40,609 nt of DNA. Origin: Candidatus Aenigmatarchaeota archaeon. GTDB lineage: Archaea > Aenigmatarchaeota > Aenigmatarchaeia > CG10238-14 > SCSR01. The position numbers were made by a program. Below, piece after piece: positions 30,001-36,000 of the stretch (its first letter is position 1; each line of letters starts with the position of its first letter). Location of the stretch: positions 1-40,609 of the forward strand of contig JAWBTW010000007.1 in the NCBI GenBank assembly GCA_039000165.1, written 5' to 3'.

Positions 30001-33000
30001 TTTTCACCATTTTCATCACTTTTGAGTGAAACTCTTTTTTCCGAAAACTTAATAAAATATAAGTCGAAAAGTATTTAAAGCTTTCTCTTTTACCTACATT
30101 TTCGAAATCTTTTTTTTTAGAAAAAACAAAATAATAATAGAGAACATGAAAGCCTTAGTTTTAACTTTTTTGTTCCTAGTAACCTTAGCAGCAATAGCTT
30201 CAGTAAGTTTAGCAAGACTTGGACCAATTGGAGAAACAGAAAGACTAGCTTTTGCTAACATGATAAGAAACTATCTTTCACCAGTAATCCATGGTTGGGG
30301 TATAGGTTTTGATTGCGAAAGAGATTCTTACATAACAGCAAAGTTCCATGTTCTAAGCGTAAAAATTTTACCCTTTGATCAAGTAGCTTCAATAATAAGA
30401 GAAGAGAAAAATAAGGCTCAGGTTGTGGATTGGTCTGCGGTAAGGGAAAGAGTAAGGGCTGCTATAGATGCTAACGGAACAATAATATCAAAAGGAAGGA
30501 TTTCTATCAATGGAACAAATTATGTGCTAACAAACATAGTTAAAACTGATACAAGCTTTAGTGCAGATATAAGAGAGCTTCCAGATTATTCAAAGTGTAG
30601 GCAACAGAACATTTCTGCTGAAGAATGCGAGCTTCAATCAACAAAAGTAGGAAGCATTAGTTTAGCGAAAGGTGAACCAACTGGACTTCCTAGCGCTCCA
30701 TATCTGTGGAAAGGAAGCCTAGAGTTTAAAGGAATAACTTACAAGTTTGGAGCTTTTGCATATCCCAGGGCGGTAGCATGAACAAGCTAATTGTTGCTGT
30801 TTGCATAATTGCAGTAATTGCAGTGATAGCTTATTTTTTAGTTCGACCAAAACCAACGTCCCAACCTGCTGTAGAAGAGGCTTACTTAGTGGAAGATTCC
30901 ATAGCTTCTTTACTCCAGCAAGAATTCGAAAAAGTTTCTGTTGATCAGAGTGCTTTTAATGCACAAGTCGAGAATGAAATAGTTAGTAGCCTAAGTATGT
31001 TCTACTATGAGTAACTTTTTCTTTTTTATTTTTTTGAGAATAATTGATTAATATGAAGAAGAAAAAGAATTTGGAAAAAATGAAACCTGTTTTAAAAACA
31101 GCAAGGAAGTTTGGTGAACTTATAGGAGAACTAAGCATCCTGAGCCAGAAAAAAACTAAAAAAGCCATAAGAAAAACTGAAAAGGTTGCTGAAGATATAG
31201 CAGCAACTCTAACAGAAAAAACTAAAGAGGTCGCAGAAGTGACTAAGGAGCTTATTCCTTTAATGATAAAGGAAGTGAAAAAAGGAATTAAGCAAGGAAT
31301 GAAAAAAGCAAAAAAGGGGAAATAATTCTTTAATAAGGAAAACAAATTTTAATTATGGAACTTGGGTGGATGACTTTCATTAACTTCGCTTCTTTTGTTG
31401 GATTAAGCTTTGCTTCACTTTTAATTTTTTATTTCGGTAGGCTATCAAACCCAAAAAGGCAAGTTTCGGTAAATGTTTTTGCTCTTTGTTTAGGCTTAGA
31501 ATTTATAGCTCTTTCTCATCTGTTTAGAGTTGAGATAGAGCCTTTTGCACCAACTTTTATAATAGTTACCTCTCTTATTGGAGTAATATTTACTCTTATA
31601 GGCTCAGTAACAGTACTTTATAATGCTTACGAAATTTCTCAACTTAAAAAAAGATACGAAGAGCTTAAGCTTATGATAGCAACCCTGAGGGAGAAATATT
31701 TCAAGCAAGAAATTTCCGAAGAAGATTTGAAAGCAGTTTATGCTAATATTCTTCGTGATTTAACTGAGATAGAAGTTAAGCTTAAAGGTTCTGTAGAATC
31801 TTTTAACGAGGAAAAGAAGTCGTAAATTTTTAAAAATGGAAAACAAATTAAATAAAAGAGAAAATGAGAGTTCAAACAGGAATCGAAAATTTAGACGAGA
31901 AAATCGAAGGTGGACTTCCTGAATCTTCTTCCATTCTACTGGTCGGCCCTCCAGGCTCAGGAAAAACAACTTTTTGCAACCAATTTATTTATAAAGGCCT
32001 TGTTCAAAACGAAGCAGCTATTTACATACTTTTTAACGCTCCACCCGAAGAGGTAAAAAAAAGTATGGAAAAGTTTGGCTGGCGCATAGAAGGGAAAATT
32101 ATAGTTTTCATAGACGTTTATTCTTGGCAAGTAGGAGGGATAGAAAAAGACACTTATATAATAAACAACCCAGCTGACTTAAACGAGTTTAACATAAAAA
32201 TTTCTCAAGCAATTAAGGATTTGCAGGATAAAAATCTTAAGAGATGCTGCATAGATGCGATTTCTACCCTTTATTTATACGTTCCAAAAGACCTTTGTGC
32301 GAAATTCTCTTCAGTTTTGTTTGCTAAACTTAAATCTTCAAAAATAACTTCAATCTCAACTATAGAAAAAGATGTTATCGAGCAAAAAGATATGGTAACC
32401 TTAGAAGCTTTAACTGACGGAACCATAGAATTAGGTTTTGACCCTACTGCTTATACACAAAGGCTTATGTGGATAAGAAGGTTAAAGGATACAAAACCAC
32501 CTCTAGAAGCTTTAAGGTTTACTATAACGGATAAAGGTATAGTTGTGGAGAAGTGATTTTATGAAAATCTCAACAGGAATAGAAAAGCTAGACGAAATTT
32601 TGGGGGGAGGAGTGGAATCAAATTCTTCCGTTTTACTTTTAACCGGAACGCTAATAGACAAATCAAGCTTTTCTCAGCACATTCTTTCCACGAGAATTCT
32701 AGAAGGAGATAGAGGGATTTACTTAACAACTTCAAAGCCACCTGCAGTTATTCTCAAGAATATGTACGAGCATGGTTGGGAATCCAAGGATATAGTCTTT
32801 GTTGACTGCATTTCTTTTACTCTTAAGCAAGAAAGCGACGCAAAATATGTTCTAAAAACATTTGTCACTAAGCCAGAAGAAGCCTGGGAAAAAACTTTAG
32901 AGCTTTTTGAGCAAGCTTTAAGAGAGACAGAAGGTTTAAAAACTGCAATTTTTGATTGCTTGGAAGTTTTTATGGGCGTGGGAGCAAAAAAAGTAGCAGA

Positions 33001-36000
33001 AGGAATTAAAAGATTGAAAAATGTTTTTGAAAAAACAAAAACAACATGCTTTTTCTTGTTTACAAACTGGGGTTACTCAGAAGAAGAATTGAGAGAAGTT
33101 TGCGATGTTATGGATACTGTTATAAAACTCGATACCATCGAAAAAAAGCTTTTGTGGATGAATTATTTCCAGTATGATGATTCACCCAGGATTTTATTCC
33201 AAATAACTCAAACTGGAGTAAACATATATGTTCCAAAAATTTTGGTAACCGGACCTTTCGGTGCAGGAAAATCAAGCACTATTCACTCTCTTTCAGAAAA
33301 AGCTGTTTCTATAGATAAGCTTGGAACAACAATAGCTTTGGACCATGGTTACATAGAGAAGAAAGGTTTAGTTTGCGACATTTTCGGAACTCCTGGCCAA
33401 GAAAGGTTTGACTGGATTTTAAAAATACTAGCAAGAGATGTTTGGGGGGTAATTCTTGTTGTTGATTCTACTAAACCAGAAACTTTTGAAAGAGCAAAAG
33501 AAATGCTTGAAAAAGTTAGAGGTTATGAGATTCCTTTTGTTGTTTTTGCAAACAAGCAAGATTTGCCAGGAGCTTTGAGCGTAGAAGAAATTAAAAAAGC
33601 CTTAGGTTTTGAAGATGTTATAGGAACTTGTGCTGTTAAGAAAGAAGGTTTGGAAGAAGGTTTAAGGCTCTTGTTTGACAAAATATTTAAGTTAAAAACA
33701 ATCTAAAAATAAAGTGAGAGAATGGTCGAGAAGAAAGAGCTTGAAGATGTTTTGAAGGAACTAGAAAAGATAGGCGATGTAATAGGTTCAGCTATAGTAA
33801 GAAGAGATGGTTTACTAATTGCAAGCGGTTTGCCAAGTGAAGTAAACGCAAGGGCAGTTGCTGCTATGGCCGCTGCAATAGTTGGTACTTCTGAGACTTC
33901 AACAAAAGAATTAGAAATAGGTGAGTTTCAACAAGTAATAGTTAACGCTTCTGAGGGACAATATGTAGCGATAGGCGCAGGAGAAGAAGCAATACTTATA
34001 GCTTTGCTGAGAAAAAATGCAAATATTGGGCTTATTCTTCTTGAGATGGAAAAAGCAGCAAAGAAAATCGAGAAGCTCGTTTAAACTTTTTTGGTGAAAA
34101 CCCAGTGAAAGAAAAGAAGACTTATATTAAGATATTGAATAAAATGATAGAAGTTATGACTGAGCTCCTTGGTGAAAAAATTGTTTTAATTTGCGCGAGG
34201 AGATCGCCCTTACTTCTAGACGAAAAAGGAAAAGTAAAAACTTTTTATGGAGAAGGTGAAATTGTTGTTGGGATTCTTTTAAAACAGTTTGAAAGTATTG
34301 TTGGCAGCGTTTGTCATGAACCAATAAAAAAGGCTATAAAACCAATAATAGGAAAAAAGAAAGTTAAACTTCCAGAAGTTTTAAAATAGTTATTTTTCTT
34401 TTGTTAGTTTGTAATGAATAGTTAAAGCATAGGTTATTATTACTGCACAAACCGCCATGAAAGCCATTTTAACTAGGATAAAATCAAAGTTTAAACCTAG
34501 AATTGCAAAGAGAGGCGATGGTACACGCATGCTTGCCAATATCTCTGGAAAAGTTAAAAACATAGCTTCAAGAGGCATCATGCTTGGCATTGCTTGAACC
34601 AAAAGAGTTTCATCTATAGAATGAAGGATTTGGAATATCCAGCCTATAGCAAAAACAATAAAGAATTTCTTGTACATTCCACCAAACTTTTTTGCCATGT
34701 AAAGAGCAAAGAAAAGAATGATTAAAGTTATTATTGGCGTGATTATACTCTCAACCATTATAAAAGCCATTATAAATTCCATCATTTTTTCTCGCCCTTA
34801 ATTGCCTTGTATATTAAATATAGACCTACAATCATCGGTAAGTACGCAATCATTTCTATTATGTAATGAGCTATAAGATAATAGACAACATTCAACCAAC
34901 CAAAGTAGATAACTGCTAAGTCTATTACCATATAAACCAAAATAGCAAAAAGTGAAAAACCAACTACTTTTAAACCAGCTCCTATAGTACCGCCAATTCT
35001 TTTAACCATAAAGTAAATAAGAATATCATCGATGGCACAGAATATTGCTGTAAGTAAAAGAAGCAAAAAAGCTGAGTCTATCATTAATTATTTTTCATTT
35101 TTCTTTAAATAAATATTTTTCTAAGTTTTGTACTTTCACTTAAAGCCTTATTCAAACCCATTTTACTAAAACGCAACCAAGAATTATACTTGGAGAAACT
35201 TTAAAACGAGAAAAAACCATCAGTAGCTTTGATTAAAGCATAAGAAAAGCTACCAATTTTAAGTTCCTTGAATTTATAACTGAACTTTTGAATACAGCAG
35301 CAGTAAGTGCTGCTAACATTCTGCTATTAATTTCCGAAGGAAAACCTGAAGCAAGTAAAAAGCCATCAGTTCCTGCTAGAATAAATTTCAAATTTTTCTT
35401 TCTTTTCTTTATTCCCATAACTATTTCTTCAACTCTTTCTCTATTTCATTTTTTTTCTGTGATTTCGGCTAAAGTTTTAAAGAAGTAGACAAAACCCAGG
35501 AGAAGAACATAAGTAGCAATAGGACCTAAGGGTATAGGAAGAGTCAAAAAAAGATTTATGAAAGTTCTTGCAATAAAAACTATACTGAAAAATAGTAGAG
35601 TTATAATTAATACTTTAAGCGCTTTAGAAGCAGAGGGATGAAGAAAGACTAAAGTCCAACTAAGTTTTTCGTTTTTCTTCACATTTTTTAAGAATTTGTT
35701 CAGATAAAACGAGAGAAATGAGAAAAGAATTACTACAGGTATTGGAGTAACGATTAGGAATATACTTTCATACATACTTTTTCACCCTTCCTAGCCATCT
35801 ACTAAACACAAAAATCGTAGCTAGGGAAAAAAGAATGGAAGAAAAAAGGAAGCTATCACCAATCATTTCATTAATTCTTTTATTCCCTACTGGCGGAATA
35901 ATGCCAATCGCTATAGGAATACAGAGCGTATAGAGGAGCCAACAAATCACACATATCACAGAAACATAAAACATAACTTTACAATCTTCTGTCATTTCTT

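What a model noticed while it worked through the whole genome (the two positions that open the first line are those of the whole stretch)
31864..34084. Operon of a KaiC-like ATPase, a pseudo-KaiC/small-GTPase fusion and Roadblock
Three co-directional genes encode a KaiC-like ATPase, a 387-aa fusion and a Roadblock/LC7 protein. The fusion joins a KaiC-like domain that has lost its Walker A motif to an Arf/MglA-like small GTPase (G3 motif DIFGTPGQ). The module is conserved wherever the fusion occurs. The fusion family is large but carries only generic names.
Evidence so far: - Pfam. - Sequences. - 1643 homologs, all of the listed 120 at 280-424 aa. - The module is found in 7 of 7 loci. - Family consensus and invariant GTPase residues. 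- Model pLDDT 88.4; PH0284 at E 6.4e-16. - Arf1 at 5.4e-14 and MglA at about 5e-9.
(Added by a program. Inside this text positions count along the whole contig: contig position 1 is position 1 of the stretch shown here. "Call 12" and the like, gene names such as g00115 and contig names such as C1 are that model's own, and its searches are not shown. The text may have been shortened before it was handed on; [...] marks where a part breaks off. The agent that wrote the report below was given it as the finding of a first reader that could run no searches.)

Follow-up and report, generated by a model that had tools for sequence, protein, structure and literature searches.

The report
KaiC-tethered MglA GTPase with Roadblock partner
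A tiny hot-spring archaeon carries a conserved gene set in which a Ras-like GTPase switch is fused to a dead KaiC-type ATPase domain and sits beside its likely Roadblock regulator and a KaiC-like partner, a signalling module found in several archaeal groups that nobody has tested.

Summary
Three tightly spaced co-directional genes encode a KaiC-like protein (31864-32556), a KaiC-like/small-GTPase fusion (most likely 32561-33706, 381 aa) and a Roadblock/LC7 protein (33722-34084).

- **Fusion N-domain:** it lacks the Walker A loop and the catalytic Glu pair in all 73 distinct fusions examined.
- **GTPase domain:** all G motifs are intact. Its G3 motif GTPGQ and G2 Thr-Thr are the marks of MglA groups 2-5, not of Arf.
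- **KaiC-like partner:** it keeps its P-loop but also lacks the catalytic glutamates.
- **Co-occurrence:** in 371 genomes of the phylum, the fusion occurs in 22 and Roadblock in 23. All 22 fusion genomes have Roadblock.
- **Adjacency:** Roadblock is adjacent in 19 of 20 testable phylum loci and 37 of 45 metagenome loci. A separate KaiC-like gene is present in 34 of 37.
- **Range:** named records come from Aenigmatarchaeota, Micrarchaeota and Thermoplasmata.
- **Complex prediction:** it supports docking of the dead KaiC domain on the KaiC-like partner (0.83 against 0.00 for the best control). This may only reflect likeness to solved KaiC rings.

Best reading: an MglA/MglB-type switch mounted on a KaiC-like assembly. 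It is a new variant of known kinds. The one paper most likely to list it could not be read.

The parts
31864..32556 (+). KaiC-like single-domain protein ('KaiC1', 230 aa). The P-loop GPPGSGKT and the Walker B Asp are present. The catalytic Glu-Glu is replaced by Asn-Ala.
   Evidence: Pfam PF06745 E 2.1e-41. PH0284 (2dr3) E 5.5e-30, with the alignment showing the Glu-Glu to Asn-Ala replacement. Orthologs lie directly upstream of the fusion in 9 of 22 phylum loci.
32561..33226 (+). Inactivated KaiC-like domain (iKaiC; residues 1-222 of the 381-aa fusion). It has no Walker A and no catalytic Glu pair. The Walker B Asp (D82) is invariant.
   Evidence: Pfam PF06745 E 1.9e-15. Foldseek to PH0284: E 3.1e-17, target-normalised TM-score (TMt) 0.77-0.80. 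Zero of 73 distinct fusions has a P-loop at the aligned columns. Invariant residues are listed.
33236..33706 (+). MglA-family small GTPase domain (residues 226-381). Motifs: G1 GPFGAGKS, G2 GTT, G3 GTPGQ, G4 NKQD.
   Evidence: Pfam Arf PF00025 E 1.9e-16 and NCBIfam small_GTP TIGR00231 E 4.5e-18. Invariant columns G231, G236, K237, T256, T257, G276, T277, G279, Q280, N331. The GTPGQ and Thr-Thr signature of MglA groups 2-5 is described.
33722..34084 (+). Roadblock/LC7 (MglB-like) protein, 120 aa. It starts 15 nt after the fusion's stop and has a GTGAG ribosome-binding-like site.
   Evidence: Pfam PF03259 E 1.6e-13. Solved archaeal Roadblock proteins at 3.9e-17 and CvnB5 at 1.8e-7. Adjacent in 19 of 20 testable phylum loci. 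Co-occurs in 22 of 22 fusion genomes.
34105..34389 (+). A 94-aa ORF (GTG start, GGTGA 8-12 nt upstream) that follows Roadblock after 20 nt. It has no family match and is conserved only within the genus. It may be the last gene of the operon.
   Evidence: tblastn finds it only in the genus-level loci L001-L004, listed again as L014-L017. The protein atlas gives nothing above 0.89.
31355..31825 (+). A 156-aa ORF with predicted membrane helices and a C-terminal helical tail. It ends 38 nt before KaiC1 and is conserved only within the genus. Its membership of the module is doubtful.
   Evidence: no Pfam match. Conserved in L001-L003 and L005 only.
31826..31863 (+). A 38-nt A/T-rich spacer before KaiC1 holding a TTTTTAAAAAT box. 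It is a candidate archaeal promoter (inferred only).
   Evidence: Sequence. The box is kept in genus relatives.

Best explanation
The module is an MglA/MglB-type small-GTPase switch mounted on a KaiC-like assembly.

Shown:
- The 381-aa protein joins an inactivated KaiC/RecA-fold domain to a complete MglA-family GTPase. The dead domain has no P-loop and no catalytic glutamates.
- Roadblock is its near-obligate genomic partner.
- One or more separate KaiC-like genes usually lie beside the pair.

Inferred:
1. The Roadblock protein forms a dimer. Like MglB, it binds the G domain and sets its GTP/GDP state as a GAP, and possibly also as a GEF.
2. The dead KaiC domain is a docking subunit. It uses the ordinary ring interface of KaiC and PH0284 to join P-loop-bearing KaiC-like partners, so the GTPase is displayed on a hetero-oligomer.
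3. The nucleotide or phosphorylation state of the KaiC-like partners and the GTP state of the G domain influence each other. The KaiC-like partner here probably binds ATP but hydrolyses it slowly. Signals are thereby integrated.
4. Inputs vary by lineage. PAS-repeat proteins and TPR-KaiC fusions sit beside the module elsewhere.

The output is unknown.
For: - **Architecture and motifs:**
- **Dead P-loop:** 0 of 73 distinct fusions has a P-loop at the aligned Walker A columns, and none has the Glu pair. Of 78 full-length cluster representatives, 75 lack it.
- **G domain:** G1 is present in 73 of 73, GTPGQ in 65 of 73 and [NT]KxD in 67 of 73. The catalytic Gln is invariant.
- **MglA marks:** GTPGQ and the G2 Thr-Thr are the published marks of MglA groups 2-5, which co-evolve with MglB (passages of PMC4316618).
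- **Phyletic pattern over 371 genomes:** the fusion is in 22 and PF03259 in 23. All 22 fusion genomes have PF03259, and only one Roadblock genome (G244) lacks the fusion.
- **Adjacency of Roadblock:** 19 of 20 testable phylum loci. Among 45 metagenome loci, 37 have it directly adjacent and 41 within 2.5 kb.
- **Separate KaiC-like gene:** 34 of 37 metagenome loci with at least 1200 bp on both sides, and 16 of 22 phylum loci.
- **Only GTPase of its kind:** the fusion is the only MglA-like GTPase in this 0.78-Mb genome.
- **Complex prediction, iKaiC domain with KaiC1:** ipSAE 0.83 (runs 0.84, 0.82, 0.83) against 0.00 for the best of 3 controls. The mark was reached by 116 of 157 solved complexes and 2 of 215 mismatched pairs. 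Contacts agree in at least 97% and the partner's pLDDT is at least 89. The pseudo-P-loop (residues 28-35) lies in the interface.
- **Sensor-type neighbours:** multi-PAS proteins occur in 15 loci, and TPR-KaiC fusions occur in others.
- **Phylogeny:** all 77 fused G domains fall in one clade (support 95/87) apart from six stand-alone GTPases.
Against: - No biochemical or expression datum exists.
- The complex pass may be memory of solved KaiC and PH0284 homo-hexamers. Close cousins of a true partner also pass, so the test cannot tell a KaiC1-iKaiC heteromer from separate homomers.
- The KaiC-like neighbours are not one orthologous group. Of 99 distinct neighbours, 56 have a P-loop, 32 have an acidic pair at the catalytic position and only 20 have both.
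- Their position and strand vary. Loci L050, L058 and L059 have none within 4.5 kb.
- KaiC-like genes are common here (5 besides the fusion in this genome), so some adjacency is expected by chance.
- Four loci (L044-L047) lack Roadblock.
- MglA groups 2-5 lack the intrinsic Arg finger. Their GAP mechanism is itself unknown.
- The tree root is a midpoint only.
- Related genomes are not independent counts.
Confidence: 0.6

Rival explanations
1. The switch needs no KaiC ring. The dead KaiC domain is only a self-association domain or an intramolecular regulatory domain of the GTPase (a built-in effector, GDI-like or GEF-like surface). The working unit is then the fusion plus Roadblock. Neighbouring KaiC-like genes are a loose or coincidental association.
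For: Roadblock is the partner with the perfect phyletic match. KaiC neighbours differ in subtype, side and strand. Three of 37 well-flanked loci have none. KaiC paralogs are numerous in these small genomes. The single-chain model is confident across both domains (pTM 0.79), so a fixed intramolecular packing is possible.
Against: A separate KaiC-like gene is present in 34 of 37 well-flanked loci, and within 900 bp in 30. In the window the genes are 4 nt apart. The complex prediction passes with the pseudo-P-loop face in the interface. The Walker B Asp is invariant although the P-loop is lost, which is easier to explain if the domain still sits in a nucleotide-binding ring.
Confidence: 0.2
2. 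The module is a regulator of a type IV pilus, archaellum or other cell-surface and polarity machine. KaiC1 would act like ArlH, and the GTPase with Roadblock would set the position or activity of the machine, as MglA/MglB do in Myxococcus. This names an output and is compatible with the main reading.
For: KaiC1 has weak sub-threshold matches to ArlH/FlaH models (NF052589 at 3.7e-10 with 39.9 bits against a cut-off of 215). Makarova et al. 2016 report KaiC-family ATPases and Roadblock proteins of arCOG02603 in archaeal type IV pilus loci (passages). This genome also has three cassettes of two membrane proteins plus a Roadblock gene.
Against: No pilus or archaellum family was found in the window. 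The neighbours are housekeeping genes such as TFB, MCM, RFC and aIF5A. None was recurrent in 102 related loci. The ArlH scores are far below the cut-off.
Confidence: 0.1
3. The module is a KaiC-like two-tier timer or hourglass. A GTPase has replaced the second (CII) ATPase tier, and Roadblock plays a KaiB-like role.
For: Foldseek aligns the whole fusion to full-length KaiC over about 440-460 columns. The order of a RecA-fold domain followed by a P-loop NTPase domain mimics CI-CII.
Against: Those alignments have an rmsd of 12-14 A, so only one domain fits at a time. The first tier is catalytically dead. No KaiB or KaiA family was found among the neighbours. Roadblock has a well-known GTPase-regulator role (passages).
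Confidence: 0.05
4. The module is an anti-virus defence or mobile-element system.
For: The distribution is patchy: 22 of 371 genomes in 13 of 170 genera for Roadblock.
Against: PADLOC gives only short P-loop matches: mad8 at 4.2e-8 over 70 residues and Csx3 at 5.4e-4. GC content is like the flanks. The neighbours are core housekeeping genes. The G-domain tree follows lineages.
Confidence: 0.02

Closest known systems
MglA/MglB of Myxococcus xanthus and Thermus thermophilus, and the wider MglA family (groups 2-5 of Wuichet and Sogaard-Andersen 2015, PMC4316618; passages read)
   Same: A Ras-superfamily G domain lacking the G3 Asp, with GTPGQ and a Thr in place of the G2 Arg finger as in groups 2-5. 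It is paired with a Roadblock/MglB gene.
   Different: The GTPase is fused to a 222-residue dead KaiC domain. That survey dropped proteins over 240 aa, does not contain the word KaiC, and found no conserved neighbours for the archaeal group 4. By overall sequence the domain is nearer to Arf1 (5e-14) than to the solved bacterial MglA (5e-9).
KaiC-like ATPases of archaea, including inactivated 'iKaiC' domains (Makarova, Galperin and Koonin 2017, mBio 8:e01959-17, not readable here); PH0284 (PDB 2dr3); ArlH
   Same: A single RecA/KaiC-fold domain. The idea of inactivated KaiC domains fused to signalling domains is named in Galperin et al. 2018 (PMC5847659, passages). PH0284 is the best structural match.
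   Different: No source that I could read describes a GTPase as the fused partner or Roadblock as the fixed neighbour. Galperin 2018 lists fusions with REC, HalOD1 and PAS and does not contain the word GTPase.
Actinobacterial conservon (CvnA-D; MfpB/MfpD)
   Same: A group-2 MglA-type GTPase and a Roadblock protein work inside a larger multi-protein signalling operon (passages). CvnB5 matches the window's Roadblock at 1.8e-7.
   Different: The conservon's third and fourth parts are a histidine-kinase-like protein and CvnC. It has no KaiC-like proteins and no fusion.
Rag GTPases with Ragulator, and Asgard GTPase-Roadblock or longin fusions (Tran et al. 2024, PMC10933270; passages read)
   Same: A small GTPase is permanently tied to a scaffold and regulated on Roadblock dimers. 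The solved Roadblock/LC7 proteins that best match the window's Roadblock score 3.9e-17. Their Asgard origin is recalled, not shown by a call.
   Different: There the GTPase is fused to the Roadblock or longin domain itself. Here it is fused to a KaiC-fold domain and Roadblock is a separate gene. Asgard GTPases are mostly not in operons with Roadblock genes.
ArvA/ArvB/ArvC vesiculation GTPase system of Euryarchaeota and DPANN (Mills et al. 2024, PMC10927574; passages read)
   Same: An archaeal Arf-like small GTPase with two conserved operon partners, also found in DPANN.
   Different: The partners are DUF2073 and DUF2072 proteins, not Roadblock or KaiC, and there is no fusion. No such families were seen beside this module.

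Membership tests
MglA family of small GTPases (groups 2-5) | Ras-like G domain with G1, G2, G4 and G5 intact | tested here: met
   Invariant G231, G236, K237, T256, T257, N331 and near-invariant K332, A358 in 33 sequences. G1 is present in 73 of 73 and [NT]KxD in 67 of 73.
MglA family of small GTPases (groups 2-5) | G3 lacks the Asp and reads GTPGQ | tested here: met
   The window reads FGTPGQ. In the alignment to Arf1 the Gly sits under the Asp. GTPGQ is present in 65 of 73 fusions. The signature is stated in PMC4316618.
MglA family of small GTPases (groups 2-5) | Thr instead of the intrinsic Arg finger next to the G2 Thr | tested here: met
   T256 and T257 are invariant.
MglA family of small GTPases (groups 2-5) | Genomic coupling to an MglB/Roadblock gene | tested here: met
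   19 of 20 testable phylum loci. 37 of 45 metagenome loci have it adjacent. 22 of 22 fusion genomes have PF03259.
MglA family of small GTPases (groups 2-5) | Single-domain protein of about 150-240 aa | tested here: not met
   The protein has 381 aa with a 222-residue N-terminal KaiC-fold domain. It is therefore a fused variant, not a standard member.
MglA family of small GTPases (groups 2-5) | GTP binding, and hydrolysis stimulated by the Roadblock partner | not testable with these tools
   Needs biochemistry.
KaiC family (PF06745), active ATPase or autokinase | KaiC/RecA fold and a family-level sequence match | tested here: met
   PF06745 at 2.1e-41 (gene 1) and 1.9e-15 (fusion). PH0284 target-normalised TM-score (TMt) 0.77-0.80.
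KaiC family (PF06745), active ATPase or autokinase | Walker A GxxxxGK[ST] | tested here: not met
   For the fusion, 0 of 73 at the aligned columns. It is met for gene 1, which reads GPPGSGKT.
KaiC family (PF06745), active ATPase or autokinase | Catalytic Glu-Glu after strand 2 | tested here: not met
   Gene 1 has Asn-Ala under the Glu-Glu of PH0284 and KaiC. The fusion has Ser-Lys or similar. The role of these glutamates is recalled knowledge.
KaiC family (PF06745), active ATPase or autokinase | Ring (hexamer) assembly through the nucleotide-site interface | tested here: inconclusive
   The predicted iKaiC-KaiC1 interface uses the pseudo-P-loop face: score 0.83 against 0.00 for the best of 3 controls. 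This may be likeness to solved rings. Stoichiometry was not tested.
Roadblock/LC7 (MglB-like) | Single Robl_LC7 domain of about 120-180 aa above the Pfam cut-off | tested here: met
   PF03259 at 50.7 bits against a cut-off of 23; 120 aa. Solved Roadblock proteins at 3.9e-17.
Roadblock/LC7 (MglB-like) | Conserved Asp-Gly pair reported for MglB partners of groups 2-5 | tested here: inconclusive
   An Asp-Gly pair is present at residues 29-30. I did not align it to their logo (passage).
Arf family | G3 WDxGGQ with the Asp, and Arf-type regulators | tested here: not met
   The Asp is replaced by Gly. The partner is Roadblock. Arf is the best Pfam and PDB match by score only.
ArvA system | ArvB (DUF2073) and ArvC (DUF2072) encoded downstream | tested here: not met
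   No such families appear among the neighbours.

The most novel reading that the evidence does not exclude
A so far undescribed archaeal signalling machine builds a Ras-superfamily GTPase into a KaiC/RecA-type ring.
- Dead KaiC subunits carrying MglA domains alternate with P-loop KaiC-like subunits.
- ATP state and GTP state are read against each other.
- Roadblock dimers reset the GTPase.
- Lineage-specific PAS or TPR proteins feed in signals.

On this reading the machine arose once. It is kept in DPANN archaea and Thermoplasmata, even in genomes of 0.8 Mb.
Probability: 0.35. Interest if true: 0.8.

Novelty: new variant of a known kind. Interest (0 to 1): 0.6.

Why it matters
**Why the link is of interest.** Small GTPases with Roadblock or longin regulators organise eukaryotic membranes and polarity. 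KaiC-like ATPases have been proposed as the main signalling hubs of archaea. This module joins the two physically.

**How well it is kept.** It co-occurs with Roadblock in every fusion genome of the phylum surveyed. It is also retained in a 0.78-Mb genome, where it is the only MglA-like GTPase.

**What it offers.** It is a compact system of three or four proteins. It could be used to test how MglA groups 2-5, which lack the Arg finger, are regulated, which the 2015 survey left open. It could also show what inactivated KaiC domains do. Public records call these proteins 'GTP-binding protein', 'ATPase domain-containing protein' or 'ADP-ribosylation factor-like protein'. A proper family definition would improve annotation of many uncultured archaea.

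Tried and rejected
- **Makarova, Galperin and Koonin 2017** (mBio 8:e01959-17, PMC5717392): this is the paper most likely to list the fusion. It is not held under its DOI, PMC id or PubMed id. I know only its title and what Galperin 2018 says of it.
- **Full-text searches that found no description of the module:**
  - KaiC + Roadblock + GTPase + archaea: 2 papers
  - KaiC + MglA: 7 papers
  - KaiC + small GTPase + DPANN, at least 2 terms: 64 papers
  - KaiC + Roadblock: 16 papers
  - KaiC + GTPase + fused + archaeal: 4 papers
  I read passages of the few plausible ones. None describes it. Supplements were not opened.
- **Expression:** no RNA holder was listed. All 9 runs were hot-spring DNA.
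- **PADLOC:** only short P-loop matches.
- **Protein atlas for the 94-aa ORF:** best score 0.89, no family.
- **Foldseek on the whole model:** it listed only KaiC-fold hits and the G-domain hits were outranked. The G domain was placed by sequence instead.
- **PF23442,** which appears in the precomputed lists: it is DUF7125 and matches at E 0.02-0.27, so it is not a dedicated family.
- **The 12-mer GGAAAACAAATT** before two genes: 3 matches with up to 1 mismatch against 1.64 expected, and 20 of 100 shuffles reach 3. It is not significant by count.
- **Arginine finger in the dead domain:** my by-eye alignment to the KaiC finger region was ambiguous, so I dropped the argument.

Full report
**What is there.** The window comes from a 783-kb, 25-contig archaeal genome that is 91.6% complete. 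The closest public records are titled Candidatus Aenigmatarchaeota. The runs that hold this DNA are hot-spring metagenomes.

Four co-directional ORFs lie between 31864 and 34389, separated by gaps of 4, 15 and 20 nt if the fusion starts at the ATG at 32561:
- a 230-aa KaiC-like protein (PF06745, E 2.1e-41);
- a fusion of a KaiC-like domain (PF06745, E 1.9e-15) to a small GTPase (PF00025 at 1.9e-16; TIGR00231 at 4.5e-18);
- a 120-aa Roadblock/LC7 protein (PF03259, E 1.6e-13);
- a 94-aa ORF with no family match.

The ATG at 32561 (381 aa) is the likelier start of the fusion than the TTG at 32543. Close homologs have 381 aa and align from residue 7, and a GGAG lies 13 nt upstream. GC content matches the flanks. 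The neighbours are housekeeping genes such as TFB, MCM, RFC, aIF2-beta, a histone and aIF5A.

**The fusion protein.** An AlphaFold2 model built on 33 sequences is confident (pLDDT 89.2, pTM 0.79). The only weak internal stretch is residues 251-260, which hold the G2/switch I loop. Foldseek puts the N-domain on the single-domain KaiC-like protein PH0284 (E 3.1e-17, target-normalised TM-score (TMt) 0.77-0.80).

At the aligned Walker A columns the window reads T-G-T-L-I-D-K-S where the neighbouring KaiC-like protein reads G-P-P-G-S-G-K-T. None of 73 distinct fusions from genomes and metagenomes has GxxxxGK[ST] there, and none has the catalytic Glu pair. Seven of the 73 match that pattern about ten residues earlier, in the GG-x-P-x-G-K-[ST] turn that precedes the first strand. 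I do not take this for a P-loop. The Walker B Asp (D82) is nevertheless invariant.

The C-terminal domain keeps every GTPase motif. Invariant residues are G231, G236, K237 (G1), T256, T257 (G2), G276, T277, G279, Q280 (G3) and N331 (G4).

**MglA, not Arf.** Arf1 is the best solved match by score (5.3e-14), ahead of bacterial MglA (5.1e-9). But in the Arf1 alignment the G3 Asp of W-D-V-G-G-Q lies over a Gly of F-G-T-P-G-Q.

Wuichet and Sogaard-Andersen 2015 (passages read) state the following:
- MglA proteins alone lack this Asp.
- Groups 2-5 share GTPGQ and have a Thr where group 1 has its intrinsic Arg finger.
- MglA co-evolves with the Roadblock protein MglB.

The fusion meets all three marks. 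That survey excluded proteins longer than 240 aa and never mentions KaiC. It found no conserved neighbours for the archaeal group 4, so it would have missed this family.

**The KaiC-like partner.** Gene 1 has an intact P-loop and Walker B Asp. The Glu-Glu of PH0284 and KaiC aligns to Asn-Ala. Orthologs in related genomes have Asn or Asp at the first position. I infer an ATP-binding protein with weak or no hydrolysis. The catalytic role of those glutamates is recalled knowledge, not tested here.

**Conservation within the phylum.** A profile search of 371 genomes found a full-length fusion in 22, counting G000 and one genome where it is split over two contigs. One other genome has only stand-alone GTPase matches. 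PF03259 was found in 23 of the same 371 genomes. These include all 22 fusion genomes, and only G244 has Roadblock without the fusion. The carriers fall in at least eight family-level groups. Related genomes are not independent counts, and many of these genomes are incomplete.

In the 22 loci:
- Roadblock follows the fusion directly in 19.
- Two loci end at the contig edge. In both genomes a Roadblock gene lies elsewhere, in one of them at a contig start.
- One locus (L030) lacks it within 1.5 kb, though that genome has a Roadblock gene on another contig.
- A separate KaiC-like gene lies within 1.5 kb in 16 of 22, and directly upstream on the same strand in 9.

**Conservation in metagenomes.** A scan with the family alignment gave 591 confirmed stretches, of which the best 80 loci were kept.
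- 62 loci hold a fusion ORF.
- 45 of these have at least 450 bp on both sides. Roadblock is directly adjacent on the same strand in 37 (24 downstream, 13 upstream) and within 2.5 kb in 41.
- The four without Roadblock (L044-L047) form one clade that has a KaiC-like gene downstream instead.
- 37 loci have at least 1200 bp on both sides. Of these, 34 hold a separate KaiC-like gene, within 900 bp in 30.

The neighbouring KaiC-like genes are of several kinds. Of 99 distinct ones, 56 have a P-loop, 32 have an acidic pair at the catalytic position and 20 have both.

**Range and size of the family.** Public names place close relatives in Aenigmatarchaeota and Micrarchaeota. A high-GC clade (63-69% GC) is placed in Thermoplasmata and 'Methanobacteriota'. 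The names given are generic: 'GTP-binding protein', 'ATPase domain-containing protein' and 'ADP-ribosylation factor-like protein'.

Against 1.84 billion cluster representatives, the family profile finds 191 proteins at E<=1e-30. Of the best 150, 86 carry both domains. Among the 78 of these that are at least 340 aa, 75 lack the KaiC P-loop. The other three (P0330, P0340, P0350) show the reverse pattern: an intact P-loop and an acidic catalytic site, with degenerate G2 and G3 motifs.

In a maximum-likelihood tree of G domains, all 77 fused rows fall in one clade (support 95/87), together with one truncated fusion that my script mislabelled. Six true stand-alone GTPases lie outside it. This fits a single origin of the fusion, but the root is a midpoint only.

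**Other recurrent neighbours.** Clustering all ORFs of 102 loci gave few further recurrent families:
- The largest is a multi-PAS protein in 15 loci. One example has 1482 aa and 11 PAS domains and lies directly upstream of Roadblock, fusion and KaiC.
- The Thermoplasmata clade has TPR proteins and TPR-KaiC fusions.
- A CRS1/YhbY protein follows Roadblock in six loci.

These are sensor- and adaptor-type proteins. They fit a signalling role but do not prove one. No pilus, archaellum or defence family recurred.

**Does the dead domain dock on the KaiC-like partner?** One complex job paired the iKaiC domain (residues 1-222, 33-row alignment) with KaiC1 (19-row alignment).
- The verdict was 'the model supports binding; it does not show it'.
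- The score was 0.83 (runs 0.84, 0.82, 0.83), against 0.00 for the best of three controls.
- The mark was reached by 116 of 157 solved complexes and 2 of 215 mismatched pairs.
- The runs agree in at least 97% of contacts, and the partner's pLDDT is at least 89.
- The interface includes the pseudo-P-loop (residues 28-35) of the dead domain and residues 101-121 and 137-151 of KaiC1. This is the ordinary subunit interface of KaiC-type rings.

Such rings are solved (PH0284, KaiC), so the pass may reflect likeness only. Close cousins of a true partner also pass. The result therefore cannot separate a heteromer from two homomers.

**Reading.** The best-supported account is an MglA/MglB-type switch carried on a KaiC-like assembly.
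- Shown: the architecture, the motif states, and the tight genomic and phyletic coupling to Roadblock, with a looser coupling to KaiC-like genes.
- Inferred: Roadblock acts on the G domain as MglB does; the dead domain is a ring subunit; ATP and GTP states are coupled.
- Unknown: the output.

Rivals are a switch that needs no KaiC ring, a pilus or polarity regulator (which names an output rather than a different mechanism), a KaiC-like timer, and a defence system.

**Novelty.** All three parts belong to known families. Inactivated KaiC domains fused to signalling domains are a published idea. I found no text describing a KaiC-GTPase fusion or a fixed KaiC-GTPase-Roadblock module in five full-text searches. 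The 2017 paper that introduced iKaiC could not be read, and supplements were not opened. I therefore rate it a new variant of a known kind, with that reservation.

Noticed in passing
window 35085-36310 (- strand); also G000 C10:15804-17017 and C2:23471-24740: A cassette of two small multi-pass membrane proteins followed by a Roadblock gene occurs three times in this 0.78-Mb genome. The membrane proteins are paralogous (for example 45% identity, E 2.8e-22). So the genome has two further intact Roadblock genes and one decayed copy, but only one MglA-like GTPase.
   Followed up: partly
window 35085-35418 (- strand): The Roadblock gene of the window's cassette is broken. The similarity to Roadblock runs through frame changes and in-frame stops, and only a 61-aa ORF remains. 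In a related genome (L003) the match is continuous over residues 6-106.
   Followed up: partly
window 31337-31348 and 31838-31849: The exact 12-mer GGAAAACAAATT lies 18 nt before the ATG at 31355 and 26 nt before the ATG at 31864, each next to an A/T box. The first copy is identical in four genus relatives, while the second drifts. By count it is not significant.
   Followed up: partly
proteins P0330, P0340, P0350: Three distant cluster representatives show the reverse of the usual pattern. The KaiC domain has an intact P-loop and an acidic catalytic site, while the GTPase domain has lost G2 and G3.
   Followed up: no
L072:146-4594 and 14 further loci: Large PAS-repeat proteins (up to 1482 aa with 11 PAS domains and no recognised output domain) are encoded next to the Roadblock-fusion-KaiC genes in one subclade.
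   Followed up: partly
L044-L047: One clade of fusions (about 400-420 aa) has no Roadblock gene within reach. A KaiC-like gene with a degenerate P-loop (GPPGPEK) lies directly downstream instead.
   Followed up: no
L114, L115 (also L113, cut by a contig end): Stand-alone GTPGQ-type GTPases of 172-191 aa have a KaiC-like gene as their next neighbour, on the opposite strand. The KaiC-GTPase link may also exist unfused.
   Followed up: no
L062:6556-9174: An 872-aa protein has a C-terminal Roadblock domain and no other Pfam match. It is encoded just after two Roadblock genes and a KaiC-like gene of the module.
   Followed up: no
window 6098-9632: Two adjacent large ORFs (584 and 603 aa) have no Pfam match at 1e-5. 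They are followed by two nucleotidyltransferase-domain genes at 9704-11679.
   Followed up: no
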